Source: Candidatus Vampirococcus lugosii | Lineage (GTDB): Bacteria > Patescibacteriota > Gracilibacteria > Absconditabacterales > Absconditicoccaceae | Reading direction: 5' to 3' | NCBI RefSeq assembly: GCF_018420025.1 | Contig: NZ_JAEDAM010000007.1 | Span: 1-24,935, forward strand | Length of the DNA: 24,935 nt | Shown: one piece after another, positions 1 to 10,513 of the stretch | Numbering within the stretch: position 1 is the first letter of the stretch | Layout of the letters: every line of letters begins with the position of its first letter | Made by a program: the position numbers and the translations under genes | Notes under the pieces: generated by a model | What the model saw: the letters and a program-made list of their open reading frames with translations, nothing else | Told to the model about the DNA's origin: nothing | The model's database searches: none

Positions 1-1473
1 AACAAAGACAAAGAACTTAACAAAAAAAGATGATTAGCTGAAGATACTATTACAGACAATCTTATTATCAAATGAAATAATTTACTTGATTTGCATTCAT
101 TAAAAAAACAATTTGCTGGTAAAATAAAATTGATCTATATAGACCCACCTTATAATACTGGAAATGATAGTTTTGGTTATAATGATAGATTCAATCACTC
201 AACTTGGCTTACTTTTATGAAAAATAGACTGGAAGTTGCAAGAGAATTATTGAAAGATGATTGAGTTATATTTGTGCAATGTGATGATAATGAACAAGCA
301 TATTTAAAAGTTTTGATGGATGAAGTTTTTGGTAATGAAAATTTTGTTTCTGATATAGCTGTTAGGTCTTCAACTCCTAGTTGATTAAAAACAACACACA
401 AGGAAAAAACTATAATTAAACAAAGAGATAGTATAATTTTTTTTACAAAAAAAATAAATTATTTAAGAATAAATCCACAGTATTATAGAAAAGAATATTG
501 GGATAGTCATTATATGTATTTTTTTGATAGAGATAATAATGAAGTTTTAAAATTAAAAGATATTTTACTTAAAAAGTGATTAATTAGTAAAAATCAAAAA
601 TTAAATAATCTAAATATTAATGATATTAATTTCAAAGAATTTTATAAAAAAAATAAATTAAATATTTTTAGAACTGCACCAGAAATGCCAGAAAAGATAA
701 AAAAAGATTCTAAATTAAATCCTAACAAAATAATTGAATATTGAAATGAAAATCAAAAACAATTTGCTTGGAATGGTAATAGAATGACTTTTATAGATAA
801 AGCAATGAAGATTGTTGATTGAGAAGAAGTTTTAGCAAACTTATTGTGTGATTTTTGGTGAGATATTGATTTTCAAAATACACAAAATGAATGATGAGTG
901 AGTTTAAAATCTTGAAAAAAACCAGAAAAATTATTACAAAGAATAATAGAACTTTCAACTAATCCTTGAGATATAGTCTTGGATTATCACTTATGAAGTG
1001 GGACAACTACTGCCGTTGCTCACAAGATGCAAAGACAATATATAGGAATAGAACAAATGGACTACATACAAGATATTACAGTTGAGAGGATGAAAAAAGT
1101 TATAGAATGAGAACAAGGCTGAATTAGTAAAAATATAGATTGGCAATGATGATGAAATTTTGTATATATGGAAACTATGGAATCAAATCAAACTTTTGTA
1201 AATAATATAAAATCTACTGAAGATAAACAAGAACTTATTAAAATATATGAACAAATCAAACAAACTTGATTTATAAATTATAATATCAATATAAAATCAA
1301 TTGATGAAAATATACAAGAATTTGAAAACTTGAGTATAGAAAATATGAAAAAATTCTTGATATCATTGCTTGATAAAAATCTATTGTATGTAAATTACAG
1401 TGAGATAGAAGATGAAACTTATAATGTAAGTAATGAAGATAAGAGGTTGAATGATGAGTTTTATAATAATTAG
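1..1473 (+). CDS. mod: Type III restriction-modification DNA methyltransferase (Mod, N6-adenine), 5' end outside the window
   Basis: Frame 1 is open to TAG 1471-1473 if TGA=Gly. Motif IV DPPYN at 142-156. Motif I HLGSGTT at 988-1008, with the first G encoded by TGA 994-996. Also IIKGNNL, DDGVIFV, NEGGVSLKSGKKPEKLLQRII, NPGDIVLD and a C-terminal GGGNFVYME. The IV-then-I motif order is typical of beta-class type III Mod. Confidence 0.93.
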
Positions 1474-1499
1474 AATTTTTAAAAAATAAAGAATTAGTT

Positions 1500-2531
1500 A
1501 TGAAAAAAGAATTAGTAAATTCAAAAATTGATAGACAAAATATTTTAAATAATAATCTTGCAATAAATCAAATTCAAGAGCAAATTTGAATGAAATGATT
1601 TAAATTTGAATGAAAAATTTGGTTTACAAAAGAAGAAGTAACTAACTTTTTTGAAGTTACAAGAAAAACAATAGATAATTATTTAGAATCAAATGAAGAA
1701 GAATTAAGAAAAAATTGATATGAAATTTTTACAGGAAAAAGGCTTAAAGAAGCCAAAGAAGAGTTTAAGAGGGAAATTGATTACCCTCTATTTTGACAAG
1801 AAAACGGCTTATTAAAGGCAAAATCTAATTTATGAATGTTTGACTTCCGTAGTTTTTTAAATCTCTGAATGATTTTAAAAGAAAGTAAAAAAGCAGTTAA
1901 ATTAAGACAAATAATTCTTGATATTACTATTGATACAATCAATAAAAAAACTTGATGAAATACAAAATATATTAATAAAAGAGATATAGAATTTTTAGAA
2001 AGTTCTTTTAAATGAGAAAATTATAGACAAAAATTTACAGATGCTTTGAAAAACTATGTAGATATGTGAAATATTAAATATCCTATTTTTACTGATAAAG
2101 TATATGAAGTTGCTTTTTTAGAAAAAGCTAAAGAATATAAAAAAATATTAAATTTAAAAGCCAAAGATAATTTAAGAGAAACATTTTATACTGAAGTTTT
2201 AAATGCTATTGCTTGTATAGAAAACTGAATTGCAGATGAATTGGAAAAAAAAAGTCAAATTTTATGAAGAAAATTAAATCAAGTAGAAACAGAAGATATA
2301 TTTAATGAAGTTTGAAATAATTCATTTTTAAAACCACAAATTGAAGACATTAGAAATAAAATGGCTAGTCGTGATTTATGTTTTAGAGATGCTTATCATA
2401 ATAAACTTGAAAAATATATTAGTGAAGTTTGAATTGAAGATTTTGAGAAATTTATTTGAGAAAAAAGTAAAGACTTTGAAGAAATATTGAAAGATACAAG
2501 TGATGTTATTAAAAGATTAAAAAATAAATAA
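1500..2531 (+). CDS. Hypothetical helix-turn-helix DNA-binding protein (RhuM/antirepressor-like, 343 aa) embedded in the R-M operon
   Basis: ATG 1500 to TAA 2529-2531, with 20+ in-frame TGA and no TAA/TAG. Likely N-terminal HTH (WFTKEEVTNFFEVTRKTIDNYLESN). The segment LGMFDFRSFLNLGMILKESKKAVKLRQIILDI resembles the RhuM/Bro/KilAC-type core from memory. The rest looks helical. Function is not established. Confidence 0.6.
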
Positions 2532-2532
2532 T

Positions 2533-3003
2533 ATGATTATGAAAATAAATTATCCTGATATAGACAAATTGATAGAGTTTCATTATAAAATAATCCAACT
2601 TTGATTAGATAAATGAGAATGATGAAGTTTTGGTTTTTTATGATGAAAAGATAAATCCGATTTAAATAGTATAATTGAATTTATTAAAAATGATGATCAT
2701 TATCCCAAATTAGAAGATAAAATCACTCATTTGATGTTTTCTATAAATAAAAATCATATTTTTGTAGATTGAAACAAAAGAAGTAGTATTTATTTTTCAG
2801 CTTATTTTTTATCTTTAAATATTTCTGATAATGATTTAGTAAAAAGATATATTAGAGAATTAGAAGATATTACAGTATATGTAGCAGATAATAAAATTTC
2901 TAAAAATTTATTATGAGAAATAATAAATAGTATATTAAATTATGAAGAATATAATGAAGAATTAAAACTAAAAATTTTTAATTCAATAAATTTAAAGTGG
3001 TAG
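2533..3003 (+). CDS. Fic/Doc family protein (death-on-curing-type toxin, 156 aa)
   Basis: ATG 2533 lies 1 nt after the upstream stop; TAG at 3001-3003. Doc-type Fic motif HIFVDGNKR at 2755-2781, with G encoded by TGA 2770-2772. Size is typical of Doc toxins. Confidence 0.82.
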
Positions 3004-3072
3004 TTGCAAAAAATACAACAACCAATAAACAAAAAATGATATGACTTGTTTTATTATTATTAAAATAACAAA

Positions 3073-5685
3073 ATGCAAAATCAACAATTCCTATATCAAA
3101 AACTTAACACACTCTCAGAGATGTGAGCTTTAAAAAAAGATATTCCACTTTATATAAATTCAAATTTAAATCCAAATTTTGAAATAAGAGATTATCAAAA
3201 AGAAGCTTTTGCAAGATTTTCTTATTATCTTAATGATTTTCCAAATAAAAAAATACCTATTCATTTACTTTTCAATATGGCAACTTGAAGTGGTAAAACT
3301 TTCATAATGGCAAGTTTGATCTTGGAACTTTATGAAAAATGATATAGAAATTTTTTGTTTTTTGTAAATTCCACAAATATTATTGAAAAAACAAAAGATA
3401 ACTTTGTAAATAATAATTCATCAAAATACCTTTTTAATCAAAAAATAAGTTTTGATAATAAACAAATAAATATTAAAGAAGTTGATAATTTTACAACATC
3501 TCATACTGATGATATAAATATAAAATTCACTACAATACAGTGATTACATATGGATTTAACTTTTCCAAAAGAAAATGGACTTACTTATGAAGATTTTAAA
3601 GACAATAAGATAGTAATACTTTCTGATGAAGCTCATCATATAAACAGCACTACCAAAAAATCAAAATTAAATAAAACTGAAGAACTACAAAAGTCTTCTT
3701 GGGAGCAAACAGTAATGAATATATTAAAATCTCATAAAGATAATTTACTTTTAGAATTTACTGCAACAGTTGATTTACAAAATGAAAATATAGCAGAAAA
3801 ATATCTTGATAAGATTATCTATAAATATGATCTAAAACAATTTAGACTTGATGGTTATTCTAAAGAGGTTGATATTCTCAAAGCTGATATGGAACAAGAT
3901 GATAGGATATTGCAAGCAATTATACTTAGTCAGTATAGGTTGAAAGTAGCAGAAAAAAATAGAATTTACTGTAAGCCTGTAATTTTATTTAAAGCTCAAA
4001 AAACTATAGCAGAAAGTCAAACAAATCTTGAAAACTTTAATCAACTTATAAAAAACTTGAAAGTAGAAGATTTGGAGAAAATACAAAATACAACAAATGA
4101 AAAAGTTTTATTAAAAGTATTTAACTTCTTTGAAGAAAATAATCTATCTTTGCAAGATATAACAAATGAATTAAAGCAAGATTTTGCAGAAGAAAATTGT
4201 ATAAGTGCAAATGATGATAAGCAAGCAGAAAAAAATCAAATCTTATTAAATACTTTGGAAGAAAAAAATAATAGAATAAGAGCTATATTTGCAGTTCAAA
4301 AGTTAAATGAATGATGGGATGTATTAAACCTTTTTGATATAGTAAGACTTTATGATTCAAGAAGTAATGTGATAGATAAAAAAACTTGAAAAGTAAAAGT
4401 ATGACCCCAAACAATGTCAGAAGCACAACTTATATGAAGATGAGCAAGATATTTTCCATTTACTACAGATAAAGCTATTTGAGAAAGTAAATATAAAAGA
4501 AAATTTGATAAAAAAGATGATGAAGAATTAAAGATACTTGAAACATTTTATTATCATACAAGTTTTGATAATCTTTATATTACAGAGATTAAACAAGCAT
4601 TGAAAGATACTTGAATGATGGATGAAGAAGAAAAAAAAGACTTTACAATAAAACTTAAAGATAGTTTCAAAAAATCTAACTTTTATAAAAACTGATATAT
4701 CTATACTAACAAAAGAAAAGAAAAAGATAATCAAGAAGTTTCAAGTTTGGAAGAAGTATGAATGAAAATAGAAAGATTTGAATTTACTCTTCATACTGGT
4801 AAAAGTTGAGCAGTTCAAGTTTTTGAAAGTAGTGAAAATCCATCTTGAGAAAAGATAGAAAAAGAGCCTAAAAGTTTTCAAATCAAAGATATAGATATAA
4901 GAATTATCAAAAAAGCAATACAACAAAATGATTTTTATAAATTTGATAACTTAAAAAAATATATATGAAAACTTAAAAGTATTGAAGATTTTATAACAAA
5001 TTATAGATATCTTTCATCTAAAAGAATTGATTTATATAGTTCAAAAGATGTTTTAGAAAATTTAAGTAATGATGACTTATTAAAAGCAGTGTCTTCATTA
5101 TTAAAATCTATGGAAAATGAGATAAAACAACAAGAAACAAAATATGAATGAACTACTATGTTTGATGCAAAATCAATACAAGAAATGTTTAAAGAAAAAA
5201 CAATAAAAGTATCTTCTTATGAAGATTATACAAAAAATCAAGATTGGTTTGTCTTTGATAAAATAACCGCAACTAGTGAAGAAAAGTATCTTGTAGAGCT
5301 ATTTGAAAAGAAAATACAAGAATTGAATGATAAATATGAAGATATATATCTAATAAGAAATGAAAGACATTTTGCTATATATTCTTTTGAAGATGGTGAT
5401 AGATTTGAACCTGATTTTGTTCTATTTATGAAAGAAAAACAAACTAAAAAACCTTTAACTTATCAAATATTTATAGAGCCTAAATGAAGTCAGTTTAAAG
5501 ATGCAGAATGATTATTTTGAAATTCAAAAGAAGCTTGGAAAGAAAAATTTTTATCTTGAATAGATGAAAAAGCAGAAATAATAGATTCTAATTTTGGTAA
5601 TTATAAATTGATATGATTGCCTTTATATAATAAAGATTTAGAAAGTGATTTTGAAGAAGCTTTTGATGATAGATTTGGTAAATAA
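3073..5685 (+). CDS. res: Type III restriction endonuclease Res subunit (SF2 helicase plus C-terminal PD-(D/E)xK nuclease, 870 aa)
   Basis: ATG 3073 to TAA 5683-5685. Motif I MATGSGKT, with G encoded by TGA 3286-3288. DEAH box at 3625-3636. KLNEGWDVLNLFDIVRL and QLIGRGARY (motifs V/VI). C-terminal nuclease-like FEPDFVLF...IFIEPKG. It joins three separate standard-code ORFs (3355-3543, 3550-4314, 5158-5487) in one frame. Confidence 0.93.
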
Positions 5686-5806: not shown

Positions 5807-6691
5807 TTATTTACAATTATTTAAATTTGGTATTTTTCATTGTGTTAATCATGAATTTTTATTAAAATCAGAACAATATTTTGCATTTTTAAGATTCCAA
5901 GAACTTATATCTCTATCAAATTCTATAGCTCAATTAAATATATAACTTATATTATCTACATCACTTACATCCCAATTTCATATATTTTGATTAAAAGAAA
6001 TTGCTCATCTAAACATATTACTCATATTTTTAACATTACTTACATCCCAATTTCATATATTTTGATTAAAAGAACTTGCTTTTCAAAACATACTATTCAT
6101 ATTAATTACATTACCAACATCCCACTTTCATATTTCTTGATCAAAAGATCTAGCTCATCTAAACATATTACTCATATCTTTTACATTACTTACATCCCAA
6201 CTTCATATATGAGAATTAAATAAATTATTTCATCTAAACATATTACTCATATTTTCTACATTACTTGTATTCCATTTTCATAAATATTGACTAAAAGAAC
6301 TTGCTCACCTAAACATATTACTCATATCTTTTACATTACTTACATCCCAACTTCATACATCTTCATTAAAAAATTCTGCTCAATATTTCCAATCTTCAAA
6401 TAATCATTTTTCAAGTTCATCAAATCATGACATATCTTCAATATTACTAGTACATGCCGTGCTTAAATCTTTTCATTGTTTTATCCATTCTAATAATATT
6501 CATCTATTTATTACAGTATACATTTTTCAATTTAAAACTTTTGTTTCCAAAGTATCTTTTCATCTACAATAAATAATTCAATCATTTTCTTCCCAAGAAT
6601 TATTACTAACATTACTACTATTACTATCATTAGAAATTTTAAATAATAACATTATAATAATAATTATTATTATTAATGCTTTTTTATTCAT
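5807..6691 (-). CDS. DUF285 / BspA-family leucine-rich-repeat surface protein with N-terminal signal/anchor (294 aa)
   Basis: ATG (complement of 6689-6691) to TAA (complement of 5807-5809); 885 nt. N-terminus MNKKALIIIIIIIMLLF. About 6.5 copies of a 25-aa unit, F(N/D)QxIGxWDVSNVxNMSNMFRGAxS, which is the DUF285 consensus. Several conserved G residues are TGA. Confidence 0.85.
5900..6375 (-). repeat. In-frame tandem array of ~75-nt units (coding DUF285 repeats)
   Basis: The core catattactcatat..ttacattacttacatcccaa.ttcata recurs at about 6015, 6090, 6165, 6240 and 6315. A 49-nt block is identical at 6169-6217 and 6309-6357. Array boundaries are approximate. Confidence 0.8.
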
Positions 6692-6902
6692 ATTTTTTAT
6701 ATAATTACTATAAATAATTTAATCATAGATTTTAAAAATGTATTAAAATAAATTGATATATTATAATATTAATATTTATTTTTTCAAGCTAAAGTTGCTA
6801 TTACATAAAGTAACAGTTAGTTTAGTTTATTAAATAACTTGCTTTTTTTTATTAAATTATTATAATTTATATATATTTAATATTGAAATTAAATATATAT
6901 TT

Positions 6903-7928
6903 ATGAGCAATACAAATGTTATAGAAAAAGAGGATATAAATCAAATTCAAGTAATAATAAATAAAAAACTTGAATGAGGTAGTTTGGAAATAATTGAATT
7001 AGATAAAAATGAAGTAAAACAAATAGATGATACTTTTGATAATATTAAAGATTTTAGAAGTTTATGAGAAAAAATAACCTCACCTGTAGATAATATAATT
7101 AATGAAACATCAAAAGTTATAAAATCTGATTTAATTATGAATACATCAAATAAATTAGAAACAGTAAATTATGATATTCAAAAAGTTTATGAAAAAATAG
7201 TAAATGAAGATTGAGCAATTTTAAGATTTTTGAAATCTATACCATTAATAGGTAATATTATTTCATATTTTATGAAAAAAAAATATAATATGAAAGAAAT
7301 TAAATGACAAATAGAAAATATTTTTTCTTGATTTGATCAATCTTATGAAAGTTTAAATAAATCTATTTATATACAAAAAAACTTTTTGGATAGTCTAGAA
7401 AAAAATCTTTGAAAAATAAATAATTATCAAAAATTTATTGATAAAAGATTAATAAATCTTGAAGAAAAATATAAAAATGAAATAGATAAAGATCAAAAAG
7501 GAAAATATAAAGTATTTATTGAACAAGTAGAATATTTTTTACAAAATATAAGAATTCTTATAGGAAATTTGGAACTTGCTAGGAAAAGAATTCTTACAAG
7601 ATTAGATTCTACAATAAAGCTTTCTTTATCTATGAATAATTCAAGACCTATATTTAAAACAATTATTAATGTGGCAATCTTGGAAACAAGTTGACAACAA
7701 GCTCTTGATGCAAGTTCTAAATATATGGAAGCAATGTGAAATGCTTTGGAAAGTATATCAGAAGATATACTTGAAGATAAAACTGAACATAAAAATGTTG
7801 AAGATAAAAATGAAGATAATTCAAATAATGAAGATAAATTAGTTGAAAATGTAAAAAAACTTAAAAATAATTTTGATGAAATTGAATGATACAGAAAAGA
7901 AATTGTAAAACAAACTCAAGAAGTTTAA
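6903..7928 (+). CDS. TelA-like (toxic anion resistance family) protein, 341 aa
   Basis: ATG 6903 to TAA 7926-7928. All-helical, coiled-coil-rich. The segment order resembles TelA/YceH from memory (LRFLKSIPLIGN..., GQIENIFSGFDQSYESLNKSIYIQKNFLDSLEKN..., LARKRILTRLDSTIKLSLSMNNSRPIFKT...). Family assignment needs an HMM check. Confidence 0.6.
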
Positions 7929-7960
7929 AAAAAATTTATTAACTAAATAATTAAATAAAA

Positions 7961-9004
7961 ATGTGATTTATGGACTTTTTTTGATGACAATTTATTGATA
8001 TTATCAATTGGGAAAATCCTGAAGAATTTCTTCTTGTTAAGAAATTTGATAGACCATTAGATGAAATTAAAAATAATTCTACTTTGATAGTAGATCCTTG
8101 ATATGCAGCTATATTTGTACATAATTGAAAAATAGAAGCTATACAAGATACACCTTGACAATGGACATTAGATACTGAAAATATTCCTTTTATTACATCT
8201 TTCAAAAATATACTTAGATGACTTGAATCTCCAGATAAAGCTGCTGTATATTTTTTGAAAACAACGGAAATAAGTAATCAAAAATGGGGAACTAAAAATC
8301 CTGTAAAATATGTAGATCCTGTATATAATTTTCCTATTAAACTTAGAGCTTTTTGAAATTTTACATTCAAAATATCAAATATAGAGTATTTTTGGACTCA
8401 ATATATATGAACAAGAAACGAAGTTACAGTTGATGAAATAAAAGCTACTATTGTAGATAGAATGTTACAACTTATAACAGATTCTTTTGCTGAAGTATGA
8501 TTGTCTTACAACAACATAGATTCAAATAGAATGGAAATAGCTGAAGAACTTTTCAAAAAAGTAAATGATAATATATGAAATTTATGAATTCATCTTACAG
8601 ATTTTAGAATAGAAGATACAAACTTTAGTGATGATACAGAAAGATTAATTGCAAAAATAGCAGAACAAACTGCAAATGTAAATACTATAAATCAATTACA
8701 AAATGTTAATCAACAAGCTATGCAAAATTATAAAACAACTAGACAACTTGATGCTATGGAAAAAGCAGCTGAAAATGAGTGAGCAGCTTGAGGTATGATG
8801 TGAACTTTTGTAGGAATGAATATGGGTAATCAAGCTAATGCTATGGGTAATATCAATGAACAAGATAATTATTGACAAAACAATAATTCTTGACAAGAAA
8901 GTTTGGAAGATAAATTAATGAAATTAAAAAATCTTCTTAATAAAGAACTTATAAGTGAAGAAGAATATAATGAAAAAAAGAAAGATATATTAAAATGATT
9001 TTAA
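7961..9004 (+). CDS. SPFH/Band-7 domain protein of the YdjI (virion-core-like) type with C-terminal SHOCT domain, 347 aa
   Basis: ATG 7961 to TAA 9002-9004. The N-terminus MGFMDFFGGQFIDIINWENPEEFLLVKKF matches the conserved MGxxDkxxGEFIDxIEW start of YdjI-like proteins. The C-terminus LEDKLMKLKNLLNKELISEEEYNEKKKDIL is a SHOCT-type motif. Confidence 0.82.
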
Positions 9005-9005
9005 A

Positions 9006-9335
9006 ATGAAATATAGACCAGATTGAAAACAATTTATAGCAGATATATGGTTTGAAGATAATATACCAAATATAGATAATTTTGTTCAAAAAATTACAAA
9101 TTGAGTAAAACTTAATATAGTAGATAAATATTCTTACAATTTTTGAATTTGAGAAACTATAATTTATATATTATCTGAAAGCCATTTTGCTATACATACA
9201 TATCCAGAATATAATTATATATCAATTGATATATACACTTGTTGAAAATCAAATCCCTATGATGCAGAACAAATTATAAAGGAAAGTTTTTCTGTGAAAA
9301 AAATAAATATACATAAATTACAAAGATGAATATAA
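9006..9335 (+). CDS. speD: S-adenosylmethionine decarboxylase proenzyme, small bacterial class (109 aa)
   Basis: ATG 9006 lies 1 nt after the SPFH stop; TAA at 9333-9335. The self-processing/pyruvoyl signature [25 protein letters not shown] matches (E)SH..(I)HT(W/Y)PE....(D)(V/I)(F/Y)TCG. Confidence 0.82.
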
Positions 9336-9374
9336 ATAATATTATTTTAATATATTAAATTAAATTATATAAAA

Positions 9375-10043
9375 ATGGAAATTACTTGTCCATCTTGTTG
9401 AGCAAGACATAATATACAAGCAGGTATGCTATCTGTTGTTTGTGAATATTGCAATAATATAATGAAAATTGAAAGAGATGAAGTTGTAGAAACTTGACAA
9501 AAAAGTTTTATATTACCATTTCCAACAGTTTTTGATGTTTGAAAATATTTTTATGTTATAGAAAATAAAAAATCAAACGATAAATTATTTTGAAAAAATG
9601 TTGAATATATATCTGATAAAGAACTTTATGAAAGAAAATTAAAAGATTATATAGCAAAATTATATGTATATTGACAAATAAGATATACAAATGATGGCTG
9701 ATTTTGGGATGATTGGTTTGTAAGAATTTTGGAAAATAAAAAGGATATAGATAGAAATAAAAATTTTGTAATTAAAGAAAATGAATGACTTATAAATATA
9801 CAATATATATCAAAAATACAAGAAGATATAAATCATGAAATATTTAGTAAATCTGTATGATTAAGTTATAATGGTTATTTCATACAAGAAATATGAACTG
9901 CAAGTATAGAATGATTTAAGTGAGATTTCCCTTTTTTTGTAGATAATCAAGATAATAGTAAATATGTTGATTTAGTTGCACAAAATACAACGGCAGAATA
10001 CAAAATCATATGAAATAATACTTTATTTTTACAAGGAATTTAA
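9375..10043 (+). CDS. Zinc-ribbon plus DUF4178-like protein, 222 aa
   Basis: ATG 9375 to TAA 10041-10043. N-terminal CPSCG..x..CEYCNN zinc ribbon. Central GQIRYTNDGGFWDDWFV resembles the DUF4178 core (G.i.Y....W.Ew.l). Family call is from memory only. Confidence 0.6.
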
Positions 10044-10123: not shown

Positions 10124-10161
10124 AAAAAAAATAGGGTAGTTAAACATAACTCTATTTTTTT
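10124..10161. terminator. Putative bidirectional rho-independent terminator between convergent genes
   Basis: An A-run (10124-10131), an imperfect hairpin atagGGTagtt-aaac-ataactctat, then a T-run (10154-10161). It lies between the DUF4178-like stop (10043) and the Hsp20 stop (10178). Confidence 0.45.
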
Positions 10162-10177
10162 ATTATTATAAATAATT

Positions 10178-10513
10178 TTAATCTAATTCTATTTTTAATT
10201 TTTCTGGAATAATTATTTTAGGAACTATTATTAATAATATATTTTCTCAAGTGAATTTAGTTTGTATTTTATCAAAATAAACATTTTGAGGTAGTGGTAT
10301 AGTATTACTAAAAGATCATCGAAAACATTCTTGTTTAACTGCTTCTAATGTATCTTTCAAATCTGGCAAAACTCTCTCTCATTTTATAAAAAGATCAGTT
10401 CTTTCCAAAAAAACTTCTATACTTTTTTTATTTACTCATCACAAAGGAGCTATAATAACAATTTCTTGTTCTGAATCATAAATATCTATAGGTATATCTA
10501 TCTTTTCTGACAT
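10178..10513 (-). CDS. Hsp20/alpha-crystallin family small heat-shock protein, 111 aa
   Basis: ATG (complement of 10511-10513) to TAA (complement of 10178-10180). DIYDSEQEIVIIAPLGGVNKKSIEVFLERTDLFIKGER ... CFRGSFSNTIPLPQNVYFDKIQTKFTGENILLIIVPK matches the ACD pattern (A.LPGV, G.F.R...LP, G.L.I..PK). Confidence 0.85.

What the first reader, a model, noticed from the sequence alone, without database searches (positions are those of the whole stretch)
6903..10043. Compact TelA-like / SPFH-SHOCT / AdoMetDC / zinc-ribbon-DUF4178 operon next to the R-M locus
Four co-directional genes with gaps of 32, 1 and 39 nt, closed by a bidirectional terminator. Each component belongs to a family I recall as linked to envelope stress (PspA/YdjI-type SPFH, SHOCT, TelA) or to Ter-type and defence-island neighbourhoods. 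AdoMetDC and DUF4178 genes are reported to co-occur in PspA-associated, polyamine-related clusters. I am not aware of a characterised system with exactly this four-gene combination, particularly without PspA and without an aminopropyltransferase. Its position one gene away from a type III R-M/Doc island, in a presumably small CPR genome, suggests it is selectively important. It is a candidate membrane-integrity or anti-phage module that produces or senses a decarboxylated-SAM-derived molecule. This is the best candidate in the window for an undescribed system.
Basis: partly seen in the sequence, partly recalled or inferred. Interest (0 to 1): 0.72.

Follow-up and report, generated by a model that had tools for sequence, protein, structure and literature searches.

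The report
Split SPFH–AdoMetDC–DUF4178 envelope operon
This is a real four-gene operon in the predatory CPR bacterium Vampirococcus lugosii, but it is the front half of an already catalogued (though biochemically unsolved) gene cluster pairing a SAM decarboxylase with a membrane-bound spermidine-synthase-like enzyme, and the 'missing' enzyme gene sits elsewhere in the same genome.

Summary
Under code 25 (UGA=Gly, verified) the window, a Ca. Vampirococcus lugosii contig, carries four co-directional genes with gaps of 32, 1 and 39 nt. They are g1 (distant, sub-threshold TelA-like), g2 (Band_7_1 SPFH + SHOCT), g3 (class 1b AdoMetDC with an intact Ser/His/Cys core) and g4 (Zn-ribbon + divergent DUF4178). 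A weak A7/U7-flanked hairpin follows.

The 'undescribed system lacking an aminopropyltransferase' reading does not hold. In related Absconditabacteria the same four genes are followed directly by a fused multi-TM/spermidine-synthase-like gene and four more genes. V. lugosii keeps that enzyme (71% identical) on another contig. In ordinary bacteria its homologs sit in CesT/Tir–PspA–DUF4178–DUF350–SpdSyn(–AdoMetDC) operons. Ravi et al. 2024 described these operons, including PspA-free Band-7/SHOCT variants, and cite Li et al. 2019.

No PADLOC hit was found, and the R-M adjacency is not seen at any relative's locus.

Best reading: g3 supplies decarboxylated SAM to the unlinked membrane enzyme, which modifies an unknown acceptor. 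g2, g4 and g1 would act as the sub-membrane scaffold replacing PspA/CesT.

Verdict: a new lineage-specific, split variant of a known but uncharacterised cluster. Interest is moderate.

The parts
6719..6902 (.). Divergent intergenic region between the DUF285 gene (- strand) and g1. It presumably holds the operon promoter and contains a short imperfect inverted repeat, CTATTAC(6798-6804)/GTAACAG(6810-6816).
   Evidence: Sequence read. It is 184 nt and very AT-rich. Promoter-like hexamers are common throughout the region, so the scan is not discriminating. The promoter role is inferred, not shown.
6903..7928 (+). g1: 341-aa all-helical protein, a distant TelA-like relative. It has no TM helix. 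Its most hydrophobic stretch is aa 106-124.
   Evidence: 100% identical to an NCBI V. lugosii protein that UniRef names 'Toxic anion resistance protein'. g1 itself has no Pfam or NCBIfam hit. 6 of 26 family members hit TelA, best E 1.3e-5, at 22-25 bits against a 30-bit cutoff, collinear over positions 11-328 of 332. The AF2 model (pLDDT 67) shows long helical hairpins. No significant PDB match by sequence or fold. Hydropathy.
7961..9004 (+). g2: 347-aa soluble SPFH protein (Band_7_1, YdjI-type) with a Gly/Met-rich low-complexity linker and a C-terminal SHOCT domain.
   Evidence: Band_7_1 E 1.8e-44 (aa 28-234). SHOCT 29.5 bits against a cutoff of 27 (aa 317-344). No TM segment: maximum KD(19) is 0.75. 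76% identical to the L006 ortholog.
9006..9335 (+). g3: 109-aa class 1b S-adenosylmethionine decarboxylase proenzyme (SpeD/SpeH type).
   Evidence: AdoMet_dc 83.3 bits. TIGR03330 79.4 bits, above the 75.65 cutoff. Aligns to T. maritima AdoMetDC 1TLU, with '[26 protein letters not shown]' against '[26 protein letters not shown]'. S59/H64/C79 correspond to the T. maritima processing and catalytic residues S63/H68/C83, and the Pro that marks bona fide AdoMetDC is present (criteria from PMC10407285).
9375..10043 (+). g4: 222-aa N-terminal Zn-ribbon (two CxxC pairs) followed by an all-beta, divergent DUF4178 domain.
   Evidence: Zn_ribbon_4 22.8 bits and DUF4178 17.1 bits, both below their cutoffs. 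The deep profile search finds only 5 clusters at E<1e-30, then ~200-aa proteins of which 9 of 10 pass the DUF4178 cutoff. g4 scores 97 bits against a local profile of those nine, matching both the ZnR and DUF4178 parts. The AF2 model has pLDDT 78.8. No PDB fold match.
10125..10161 (.). A-run/hairpin/U-run element between g4 and the convergent Hsp20 gene. It is a candidate bidirectional intrinsic terminator.
   Evidence: Inverted repeat with 13-nt arms, 92% complementary. RNA fold -10.1 kcal/mol, z -2.41, with 3 of 200 shuffles folding as well. Not called by the G+C-requiring scanner.

Best explanation
The four genes are the 5' half of an Absconditabacteria operon. That operon is the lineage-specific form of the widespread gene cluster pairing AdoMetDC with a fused multi-TM (MFS-like)/spermidine-synthase-like enzyme, DUF4178 and DUF350. 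In most bacteria the cluster is headed by a CesT/Tir-PspA pair.

Proposed mechanism:
1. g3 self-cleaves at Glu58-Ser59 to form its pyruvoyl cofactor and decarboxylates S-adenosylmethionine. This is inferred from intact motifs.
2. The decarboxylated SAM is used by the membrane-embedded SpdSyn-like enzyme. That enzyme is encoded next to g4 in relatives and on another contig in V. lugosii. It would aminopropylate an acceptor that is probably not putrescine. This step is inferred from the literature on the fusion family.
3. g2 (soluble SPFH + SHOCT), g4 (ZnR-DUF4178) and the helical TelA-like g1 form the sub-membrane scaffold or sensor. They would take the place held by PspA/CesT in other bacteria and couple the modification to membrane state. 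This step is inferred from gene-order substitution and from the role of YdjI in B. subtilis.

In V. lugosii the operon has been split and shortened. Genes 6-9 of the relatives' operon are absent from both loci examined.
For: - Full operon in relatives. L005 and L006 carry TelA-like / Band7-SHOCT / AdoMetDC / ZnR-DUF4178 / multi-TM Spermine_synth (503-509 aa) plus four more genes. Identity of the L006 proteins to the window proteins is 57-76%.
- Same-contig linkage elsewhere. Matching contig lengths across the hit tables places g4-family and SpdSyn-like proteins together on contigs of 9319, 8436, 6325 and 8350/26190 bp.
- Enzyme retained in V. lugosii. P0112, 'fused MFS/spermidine synthase', is 71% identical to the L006 protein and keeps the GGGDG and DFPDP motifs. 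Its locus is L017.
- Canonical clusters around homologs of that enzyme. L012 has CesT/PspA/DUF4178/DUF350/two small proteins/SpdSyn/AdoMet_dc, and L013-L016 are similar. SpdSyn, AdoMetDC and DUF350 are homologous across these sets.
- Literature. Ravi et al. 2024 describe these operons and Band-7/SHOCT replacements of the PspA dyad with AdoMetDC. [quoted passage not shown] 2019.
- g3 active-site integrity.
- YdjI precedent. This soluble SPFH protein with a low-complexity linker is required to bring PspA to the membrane (PMC8581546).
Against: - No experiment exists for any component in this lineage, and the acceptor of the SpdSyn-like fusion is unknown.
- I could not read Li et al. 2019. Its finding that the fusion does not complement a spermidine-synthase mutant is from my memory of the abstract.
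- In V. lugosii the enzyme gene is unlinked, so co-regulation is lost.
- g1 homologs occur without the other genes in Arcobacter-type and Gracilibacteria genomes, so g1 may be only loosely coupled.
- L004 has Band7-SHOCT and a g4 homolog without AdoMetDC or SpdSyn. L009 has AdoMetDC and SpdSyn without Band7, DUF4178 or TelA. The scaffold genes and the enzyme genes are therefore separable modules.
- Whether V. lugosii can make or import SAM was not testable here.
Confidence: 0.6

Rival explanations
1. Ordinary spermidine (or other polyamine) biosynthesis. g3 is SpeD and the unlinked SpdSyn-like protein is a working spermidine synthase acting on putrescine scavenged from the prey. g1, g2 and g4 are unrelated envelope genes that happen to be adjacent.
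For: g3 passes the NCBIfam AdoMetDC equivalog cutoff. P0112 has a strong Spermine_synth domain with GGGDG and DFPDP motifs, and sources name it spermidine synthase. The V. lugosii paper lists it as 'spermidine synthase'.
Against: The enzyme is the ~500-aa multi-TM fusion type, not a soluble SpeE. This type sits in conserved operons with PspA, DUF4178 and DUF350 rather than with polyamine-precursor genes. Ravi et al., citing Li et al. 2019, speak of aminopropylation of other substrates. The order Band7-SHOCT/AdoMetDC/DUF4178/SpdSyn is conserved across Absconditabacteria with 50-76% identity, which argues against accidental adjacency.
Confidence: 0.2
2. An anti-phage or abortive-infection module. 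SPFH/SHOCT/TelA-type proteins would sense infection and a decarboxylated-SAM-derived product would act as signal or effector, placed in a defence island next to type III R-M/Doc.
For: It lies one gene away from a type III R-M with an embedded Fic/Doc gene. One canonical cluster (L012) is surrounded by toxin-antitoxin genes, transposases and a group II intron RT. TelA and SPFH families do recur in stress and defence neighbourhoods (own knowledge).
Against: There is no PADLOC hit at E<=0.01 apart from one 14-bit noise match for g4. The R-M adjacency is not seen at the relatives' loci: L004 has rpoB/rpoC upstream, and L005, L013 and L015 have unrelated genes. The window is otherwise housekeeping chromosome. 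The cluster's constant partners are membrane and polyamine-type genes, not nucleases or NTPases.
Confidence: 0.05
3. g3 is a neofunctionalised SpeD homolog, a pyruvoyl-dependent ornithine or arginine decarboxylase (SpeDC/SpeDA), making putrescine or agmatine rather than decarboxylated SAM.
For: Such enzymes are common in CPR bacteria. They were found by looking for SpeD without an adjacent SpeE (PMC10407285), and locally that is the situation here.
Against: g3 keeps the HT(Y)PE proline that the paper reports as fully conserved in bona fide AdoMetDC and not conserved in SpeDA. Its core closely matches the T. maritima enzyme. It passes TIGR03330. Its orthologs sit beside a dcSAM-using SpdSyn-like gene. 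The positions of the four SpeDC-diagnostic residues could not be read from the text, so SpeDC is not formally excluded.
Confidence: 0.07

Closest known systems
AdoMetDC + fused MFS/spermidine-synthase-like (+DUF350) gene clusters (Li, Kurihara, Kim, Liang & Michael 2019, Biochem J 476:2579; cited in PMC11237479)
   Same: It has a class 1b AdoMetDC. A ~500-aa multi-TM/SpdSyn-like fusion is encoded in the genome and lies adjacent in relatives. The SpdSyn-like proteins are homologous at 37-43% identity to those of Spirochaetota, Deltaproteobacteria and others. DUF350 is present in the L004 variant.
   Different: In V. lugosii the two enzyme genes are unlinked, and no DUF350 lies in the window. 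I could not read the paper itself. Its biochemical conclusions are from my recollection and from how Ravi et al. cite it.
CesT/Tir-PspA-DUF4178-DUF350-lipoprotein-7TM/SpdSyn operons and their PspA-free Band-7/SHOCT variants (Ravi et al. 2024, mSystems, PMC11237479)
   Same: It has DUF4178 and AdoMetDC, with the SpdSyn-like fusion in relatives. A Band-7 + SHOCT protein occupies the position of the PspA dyad.
   Different: - g2 has no TM segments, whereas Ravi et al. describe band-7 + 2TM + SHOCT.
- The DUF4178 protein carries an N-terminal Zn-ribbon, whereas L012's has a TM helix.
- A TelA-like gene heads the operon, which that paper does not mention (0 occurrences of 'TelA').
- There is no polyamine oxidase.
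- The operon is split in V. lugosii.
Bacillus subtilis pspA-ydjGHI (YdjI/SamI SPFH protein; Scholz et al. 2021, PMC8581546)
   Same: [quoted passage not shown] It is encoded with Zn-ribbon-containing partners in an envelope-stress operon.
   Different: There is no PspA and no YdjG/YdjH (TPM) homolog in the window. The C-terminal module is SHOCT, not a zinc finger. The partner enzymes (AdoMetDC, SpdSyn-like) are absent from the Bacillus operon.
TelA / toxic-anion-resistance proteins (PF05816)
   Same: It is all-helical, ~340-400 aa, and gives a collinear weak match over nearly the whole Pfam model in close homologs.
   Different: Scores fall below Pfam's cutoff, and g1 itself gives no hit. No Ter (TerD/TerC) genes are nearby. 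Homologs in Arcobacter pair with a ~390-aa protein of no recognised family instead.
Thermotoga maritima AdoMetDC (PDB 1TLU/1VR7)
   Same: It has the same class 1b size and the same processing and catalytic core, Ser/His/Cys with +5 and +20 spacing.
   Different: g3 is about 20 residues shorter overall, and its activity is untested.

Membership tests
Class 1b AdoMetDC (PF02675 / TIGR03330) | Profile score above the curated cutoffs | tested here: met
   PF02675 scores 83.3 bits against a cutoff of 25. TIGR03330 scores 79.4 bits against 75.65.
Class 1b AdoMetDC (PF02675 / TIGR03330) | Self-processing Ser in an E-S motif, catalytic His at +5 and Cys at +20 (T. maritima S63/H68/C83) | tested here: met
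   g3 has S59, H64 and C79 and aligns to 1TLU. The criteria come from PMC10407285.
Class 1b AdoMetDC (PF02675 / TIGR03330) | Conserved Pro that separates bona fide AdoMetDC from SpeDA arginine decarboxylases | tested here: met
   g3 has 'HTYPE' against T. maritima 'HTWPE'.
Class 1b AdoMetDC (PF02675 / TIGR03330) | Absence of the four SpeDC (ornithine decarboxylase) diagnostic residues Gln/Thr/Phe/Tyr | tested here: inconclusive
   Their alignment positions are given only in a figure that is not held. The g3 core resembles the AdoMetDC consensus.
Class 1b AdoMetDC (PF02675 / TIGR03330) | SAM decarboxylase activity | not testable with these tools
   This needs expression of a recoded gene.
Band_7_1 SPFH (YdjI type) with SHOCT | Band_7_1 and SHOCT profiles above cutoff | tested here: met
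   Band_7_1 scores 152.4 bits against a cutoff of 24. SHOCT scores 29.5 bits against 27.
Band_7_1 SPFH (YdjI type) with SHOCT | Soluble, with no membrane anchor, as in YdjI | tested here: met
   Maximum KD(19) is 0.75.
Band_7_1 SPFH (YdjI type) with SHOCT | Operon partnership with PspA | tested here: not met
   No PspA_IM30 gene is found in the window or in L004-L006. The rest of the genome was not searchable.
TelA (PF05816) | Score above the Pfam gathering cutoff (30 bits) | tested here: not met
   g1 gives no hit. Its homologs score 22-25 bits.
TelA (PF05816) | Full-length collinear, all-helical architecture | tested here: met
   The homolog matches cover model positions 11-328 of 332. The AF2 model is all-helical.
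DUF4178 (PF13785) | Score above the Pfam gathering cutoff (25 bits) | tested here: not met
   g4 scores 17.1 bits, and the other eight family members give no hit.
DUF4178 (PF13785) | Homology through intermediates that are certified members | tested here: met
   9 of 10 remote profile hits pass the cutoff at 26.6-65.3 bits. g4 scores 97 bits against a profile built from them.
AdoMetDC / fused MFS-SpdSyn-like / DUF4178 envelope cluster (Li 2019; Ravi 2024) | AdoMetDC gene in the cluster | tested here: met
   g3.
AdoMetDC / fused MFS-SpdSyn-like / DUF4178 envelope cluster (Li 2019; Ravi 2024) | Adjacent gene for a multi-TM + SpdSyn-like fusion | tested here: not met
   It is absent from the window. 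It is adjacent in relatives L005 and L006, and in V. lugosii it is present on another contig.
AdoMetDC / fused MFS-SpdSyn-like / DUF4178 envelope cluster (Li 2019; Ravi 2024) | DUF4178 protein in the cluster | tested here: met
   g4.
AdoMetDC / fused MFS-SpdSyn-like / DUF4178 envelope cluster (Li 2019; Ravi 2024) | CesT/Tir-PspA dyad, or a Band-7/SHOCT protein in its place | tested here: met
   g2 is Band_7_1 + SHOCT. The substitution is described.
AdoMetDC / fused MFS-SpdSyn-like / DUF4178 envelope cluster (Li 2019; Ravi 2024) | DUF350 membrane protein | tested here: not met
   None is found in the window. Among the Absconditabacteria loci it is present only in L004.
Known anti-phage defence systems (PADLOC-DB 2.0) | Any component matching a defence-system model | tested here: not met
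   There are no hits for g1-g3, and g4 gives one 14-bit match at E 0.0085.

The most novel reading that the evidence does not exclude
The cluster is a membrane-modification system rather than a polyamine pathway. Decarboxylated SAM from g3 would be used by the membrane-embedded SpdSyn-like enzyme to aminopropylate a non-polyamine acceptor at the inner membrane face, either a lipid head group or a protein. One candidate acceptor is the conserved ~80-aa TM protein with a Gly-rich tail ending in Gly-Lys (GGK in five of six; SGK in L006), which is encoded next to the enzyme from Absconditabacteria to Deltaproteobacteria. The SPFH-SHOCT, ZnR-DUF4178 and TelA-like proteins would gate or localise the reaction in response to membrane stress. 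Its retention in a 1.3-Mb predatory CPR genome that cannot make its own lipids would then point to conditioning of scavenged membranes.
Probability: 0.2. Interest if true: 0.7.

Novelty: new variant of a known kind. Interest (0 to 1): 0.35.

Why it matters
The gene-cluster class is widespread. By my recollection of Li et al. 2019 it occurs in thousands of genomes, and I re-found it here in several unrelated bacterial lineages. It is nevertheless biochemically unsolved: nobody knows what the membrane-bound spermidine-synthase-like enzyme modifies, or why it travels with PspA, SPFH and DUF4178 envelope-stress proteins.

The Absconditabacteria version is compact. It lacks PspA, adds a TelA-like gene, and persists in a 1.3-Mb genome almost devoid of biosynthesis. 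That argues the function is important and self-contained, and it gives a minimal gene set (g1-g4 plus P0112) for reconstitution.

It is not a new defence system, and it is not the 'orphan AdoMetDC without a partner' that made the finding look exceptional.

Tried and rejected
- Table-11 ORFs are fragmented and were rejected in favour of UGA as a sense codon. UGA=Trp was rejected in favour of UGA=Gly.
- The Pfam TelA assignment for g1 is not met.
- PDB sequence search with the g1 profile gave only noise.
- The genome-collection scan with the SpdSyn-like alignment used over-specific peptide patterns and returned only 4 loci. It could not show presence or absence in V. lugosii. The last protein search answered that question instead.
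- The metagenome scan with the g4 family only re-found L006 plus one fragment.
- Contig look-up of P0112 failed. A cluster member gave the locus instead.
- I first took L007 for a second strain at 95-97% amino-acid identity. It is 99.8-100% identical at the nucleotide level, and the difference was UGA translated as Trp, so it is the same organism re-assembled. dN/dS was therefore uninformative.
- Li et al. 2019 is not held in the library.
- The G+C-based terminator scan found nothing.
- The small accessory proteins p209/p213 and p73/p80 have no detectable homologs in the canonical clusters.
- I could not establish whether the 'SPFH domain-containing protein' in the paper's list of HGT-acquired genes is g2.


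Full report
**Source and genetic code.** The window is a 24,935-bp NCBI contig of Candidatus Vampirococcus lugosii. This is an Absconditabacteria/SR1-related CPR bacterium that preys epibiotically on Halochromatium and has a 1.31-Mb genome. Read with the standard bacterial code the region is fragmented. Counting ORFs of at least 100 aa, the window holds 1,384 aa with UGA as stop and 10,807 aa with UGA as sense. UGA means Gly, not Trp. At g1's nine UGA codons, homologs from standard-code bacteria have Gly at the conserved positions (aa 55, 104, 143, 170) and never Trp. The UGA=Gly translations of g1 and g4 are 100% identical to the deposited proteins. Many public metagenome gene calls translate these UGAs as Trp, which lowers apparent identities.

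**The observation.** Four + strand genes lie at 6903-7928 (g1, 341 aa), 7961-9004 (g2, 347 aa), 9006-9335 (g3, 109 aa) and 9375-10043 (g4, 222 aa). The gaps are 32, 1 and 39 nt, exactly as reported.
- Upstream is a 184-nt divergent intergenic region, then a DUF285 repeat protein on the opposite strand. Beyond that lies a type III R-M locus (N6_N4_Mtase, an unassigned 343-aa protein, Fic/Doc, ResIII).
- Downstream, g4 converges on an Hsp20 gene. The 134-nt spacer holds an inverted repeat flanked by A7 and T7 (10125-10161). It folds at -10.1 kcal/mol, z = -2.4.
- A scanner that requires G+C-rich stems does not call it a terminator. 'Bidirectional terminator' is therefore plausible for a 20% G+C genome but weakly supported.

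**Family assignments.**
- g2 is solid: Band_7_1 (E 1.8e-44) plus a C-terminal SHOCT domain above cutoff, with no TM segment.
- g3 is solid: AdoMet_dc at 83 bits and the NCBIfam AdoMetDC equivalog above its trusted cutoff. It aligns to the T. maritima crystal structure through the core 'SESH..IHT(Y/W)PE..Y..ID..TCG'. S59, H64 and C79 match the residues needed for self-processing and catalysis, and the proline that separates true AdoMetDCs from the arginine-decarboxylase offshoots is present.
- g4 fails Pfam's DUF4178 cutoff directly (17.1 against 25 bits). A deep profile search shows that its close family is tiny (5 clusters at E<1e-30 among 1.8 billion representatives), followed by ~200-aa proteins. 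Nine of ten of those tested pass the DUF4178 cutoff and share the Zn-ribbon + DUF4178 layout. g4 scores 97 bits over the full length of a profile built from them. The AF2 model (pLDDT 79) shows a Zn-ribbon followed by an all-beta domain, with no solved structural relative.
- g1 is the weakest call. It has no Pfam or NCBIfam hit itself. 6 of 26 family members touch TelA. The best matches are collinear over nearly the whole model but score 22-25 bits against a 30-bit cutoff. The model is all-helical and has no significant PDB match. 'Distant TelA-like' is fair, but 'TelA' is not established.

**What the neighbourhood shows.** The decisive evidence comes from relatives.
- L005 and L006 are two code-25 contigs whose proteins are 46-76% identical to g1-g4. 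Both carry the same four genes in the same order, and the g4 homolog is followed by a 503-509-aa protein with an N-terminal multi-TM domain and a C-terminal Spermine_synth domain.
- Four more genes come after that: a ~500-aa Zn-ribbon/TM protein, an ~80-aa TM protein with a Gly-rich tail, a ~210-aa protein and a ~75-aa protein.
- Matching contig lengths across the hit tables puts g4-family and SpdSyn-like proteins on the same contig in two further relatives.
- None of genes 5-9 is in the window.
- V. lugosii does encode the enzyme. P0112, 'fused MFS/spermidine synthase [Candidatus Vampirococcus lugosii]', is 503 aa, 71% identical to L006's, lies on a 58-kb contig and retains the GGGDG and DFPDP motifs.
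- Its locus was recovered from a Logan assembly of the same organism's reads (L017). It shows the gene with one co-directional multi-TM neighbour (weak Peptidase_M50B hit) and none of genes 6-9.
- The genome paper lists this 'spermidine synthase' and the adjacent M50B peptidase among 126 genes inferred to be horizontally acquired.
- L007, which I first took for a second strain, is 99.8-100% identical to the window at the nucleotide level. It is the same organism.

**Connection to known systems.** Homologs of the fused enzyme (37-43% identity) in standard-code bacteria sit in operons reading CesT/Tir - PspA - DUF4178 - DUF350 - ~190-aa protein - ~80-aa protein - SpdSyn-like, with AdoMet_dc following in L012. 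SpdSyn, AdoMetDC and DUF350 are detectably homologous between these and the Absconditabacteria operons.
- This is the operon class described by Ravi et al. 2024 (PMC11237479). They also report PspA-free variants of related polyamine operons in which a Band-7/SHOCT protein replaces the CesT/Tir-PspA dyad and AdoMetDC is present. They propose that these systems monitor polyamine levels or 'aminopropylation of other substrates', citing Li et al. 2019.
- I could not obtain Li et al. 2019. My recollection is that it reported thousands of genomes pairing AdoMetDC with an MFS/SpdSyn-like fusion that does not make spermidine.
- The modules are separable. L004 has Band7-SHOCT, DUF350 and a g4 homolog without either enzyme. 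The Gracilibacteria locus L009 has both enzymes plus p213 and p73 but no Band7, DUF4178 or TelA-like gene. g1 homologs in Arcobacter-type genomes and in one Gracilibacteria genome have quite different neighbours.

**Mechanism.** What is shown:
- The operon is real.
- g3 has every sequence feature of an active AdoMetDC.
- A dcSAM-using membrane enzyme is its conserved partner, linked in relatives and unlinked here.
- The scaffold-type genes occupy the position that PspA/CesT holds in other bacteria.

What is inferred:
- g3 supplies decarboxylated SAM to the membrane enzyme, which aminopropylates an unknown acceptor.
- g2 is a soluble SPFH protein built like B. subtilis YdjI, which is needed to bring PspA to the membrane (PMC8581546). 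Together with g4 and g1 it would localise or gate this reaction at the inner face of the membrane.

I put about 0.6 on this overall. Confidence is higher for the classification and lower for the mechanism.

**Rivals.**
- Plain spermidine synthesis from scavenged putrescine (about 0.2).
- A neofunctionalised ornithine or arginine decarboxylase (about 0.07).
- An anti-phage module (about 0.05). This has no PADLOC support, and the R-M adjacency is not seen at any of the relatives' loci.

**Novelty and verdict.** The two features that made it look exceptional do not hold up: the aminopropyltransferase-like partner exists, and the PspA-free Band-7/SHOCT + AdoMetDC arrangement is already in the comparative-genomics literature.

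What is new is modest:
- an Absconditabacteria-specific variant headed by a TelA-like gene;
- a Zn-ribbon-fused, highly divergent DUF4178;
- an SPFH-SHOCT protein without TM segments;
- in V. lugosii, a split and shortened operon.

The class as a whole remains biochemically unsolved, so this minimal version in a 1.3-Mb genome is a reasonable reconstitution target. I rate it a new variant of a known kind, with interest 0.35.

Noticed in passing
L006 6745-6984, L005 8105-8350, L004 7242-7496, L012 7751-8011, L015 7694-7936, L013 7523-7777: An ~80-aa protein is encoded beside the fused SpdSyn-like gene in the Absconditabacteria operons and in three unrelated standard-code bacteria. In all six cases it has an N-terminal TM helix and a Gly-rich C-terminal tail ending in GGK (SGK in L006). 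It has no Pfam family and is absent from the window. It could be a partner or acceptor of the unknown aminopropyl transfer, but that is speculation.
   Followed up: partly
window 1-5685: The type III R-M locus has two extra genes inserted between mod (N6_N4_Mtase, cut at the contig start) and res (ResIII). One is a 343-aa protein with no family hit (1470-2531) and the other a 156-aa Fic/Doc protein (2521-3003), with overlapping or near-contiguous reading frames. The V. lugosii paper lists a type III restriction enzyme and a death-on-curing protein among horizontally acquired genes.
   Followed up: partly
window 5807-6718 (-): A 294-aa secreted-looking protein is made of DUF285 repeats (317 bits). 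It is transcribed divergently from the operon and sits between the operon and the R-M locus.
   Followed up: partly
window 10178-10513 (-): An Hsp20/alpha-crystallin gene converges on g4 and shares the A7/T7-flanked hairpin. Behind it on the same strand are a 192-aa TM protein with no family hit, an ABC-2 permease and a CNNM/CBS/CorC transporter.
   Followed up: partly
L007 (whole), L017 (whole), and proteins P0002, P0102-P0109: Logan, JGI and ENA gene calls for these code-25 organisms translate UGA as Trp. Identical DNA therefore appears as 95-97% protein identity, and profile searches see spurious Trp at Gly columns. L007 and L017 are re-assemblies of V. lugosii's own sequencing runs, not other strains.
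   Followed up: yes
L006 5200-6744, L005 6647-8098, L004 5802-7229: Operon gene 6 (~450-515 aa) has two Zn-ribbon-like CxxC pairs, a beta-rich region that weakly matches the ZnR-DUF4178 profile (16 bits for the L004 protein), TM segments and a C-terminal domain. The full operon may therefore carry two DUF4178-type proteins.
   Followed up: partly
L001 7001-9747, L002 7001-9761: In Arcobacter-type genomes near dnaA, the g1-family (TelA-like) gene is followed by a conserved ~390-aa protein with no recognised family and a 150-aa secreted-looking protein. This is a different, uncharacterised partnership for the same family.
   Followed up: no
window 6798-6816: A short inverted repeat, CTATTAC-N5-GTAACAG, lies in the divergent promoter region upstream of g1. 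It is perfect (CTGTTAC) in the Logan re-assembly L007. It could be an operator or nothing.
   Followed up: no
L004 8723-9640: In the AdoMetDC-less variant of the cluster, the g4 homolog is followed by a MoxR-type AAA ATPase (AAA_3/AAA_5). In L003 a g1 homolog is followed by an AAA ATPase. This recalls the PspA-AAA+ associations described by Ravi et al.
   Followed up: no
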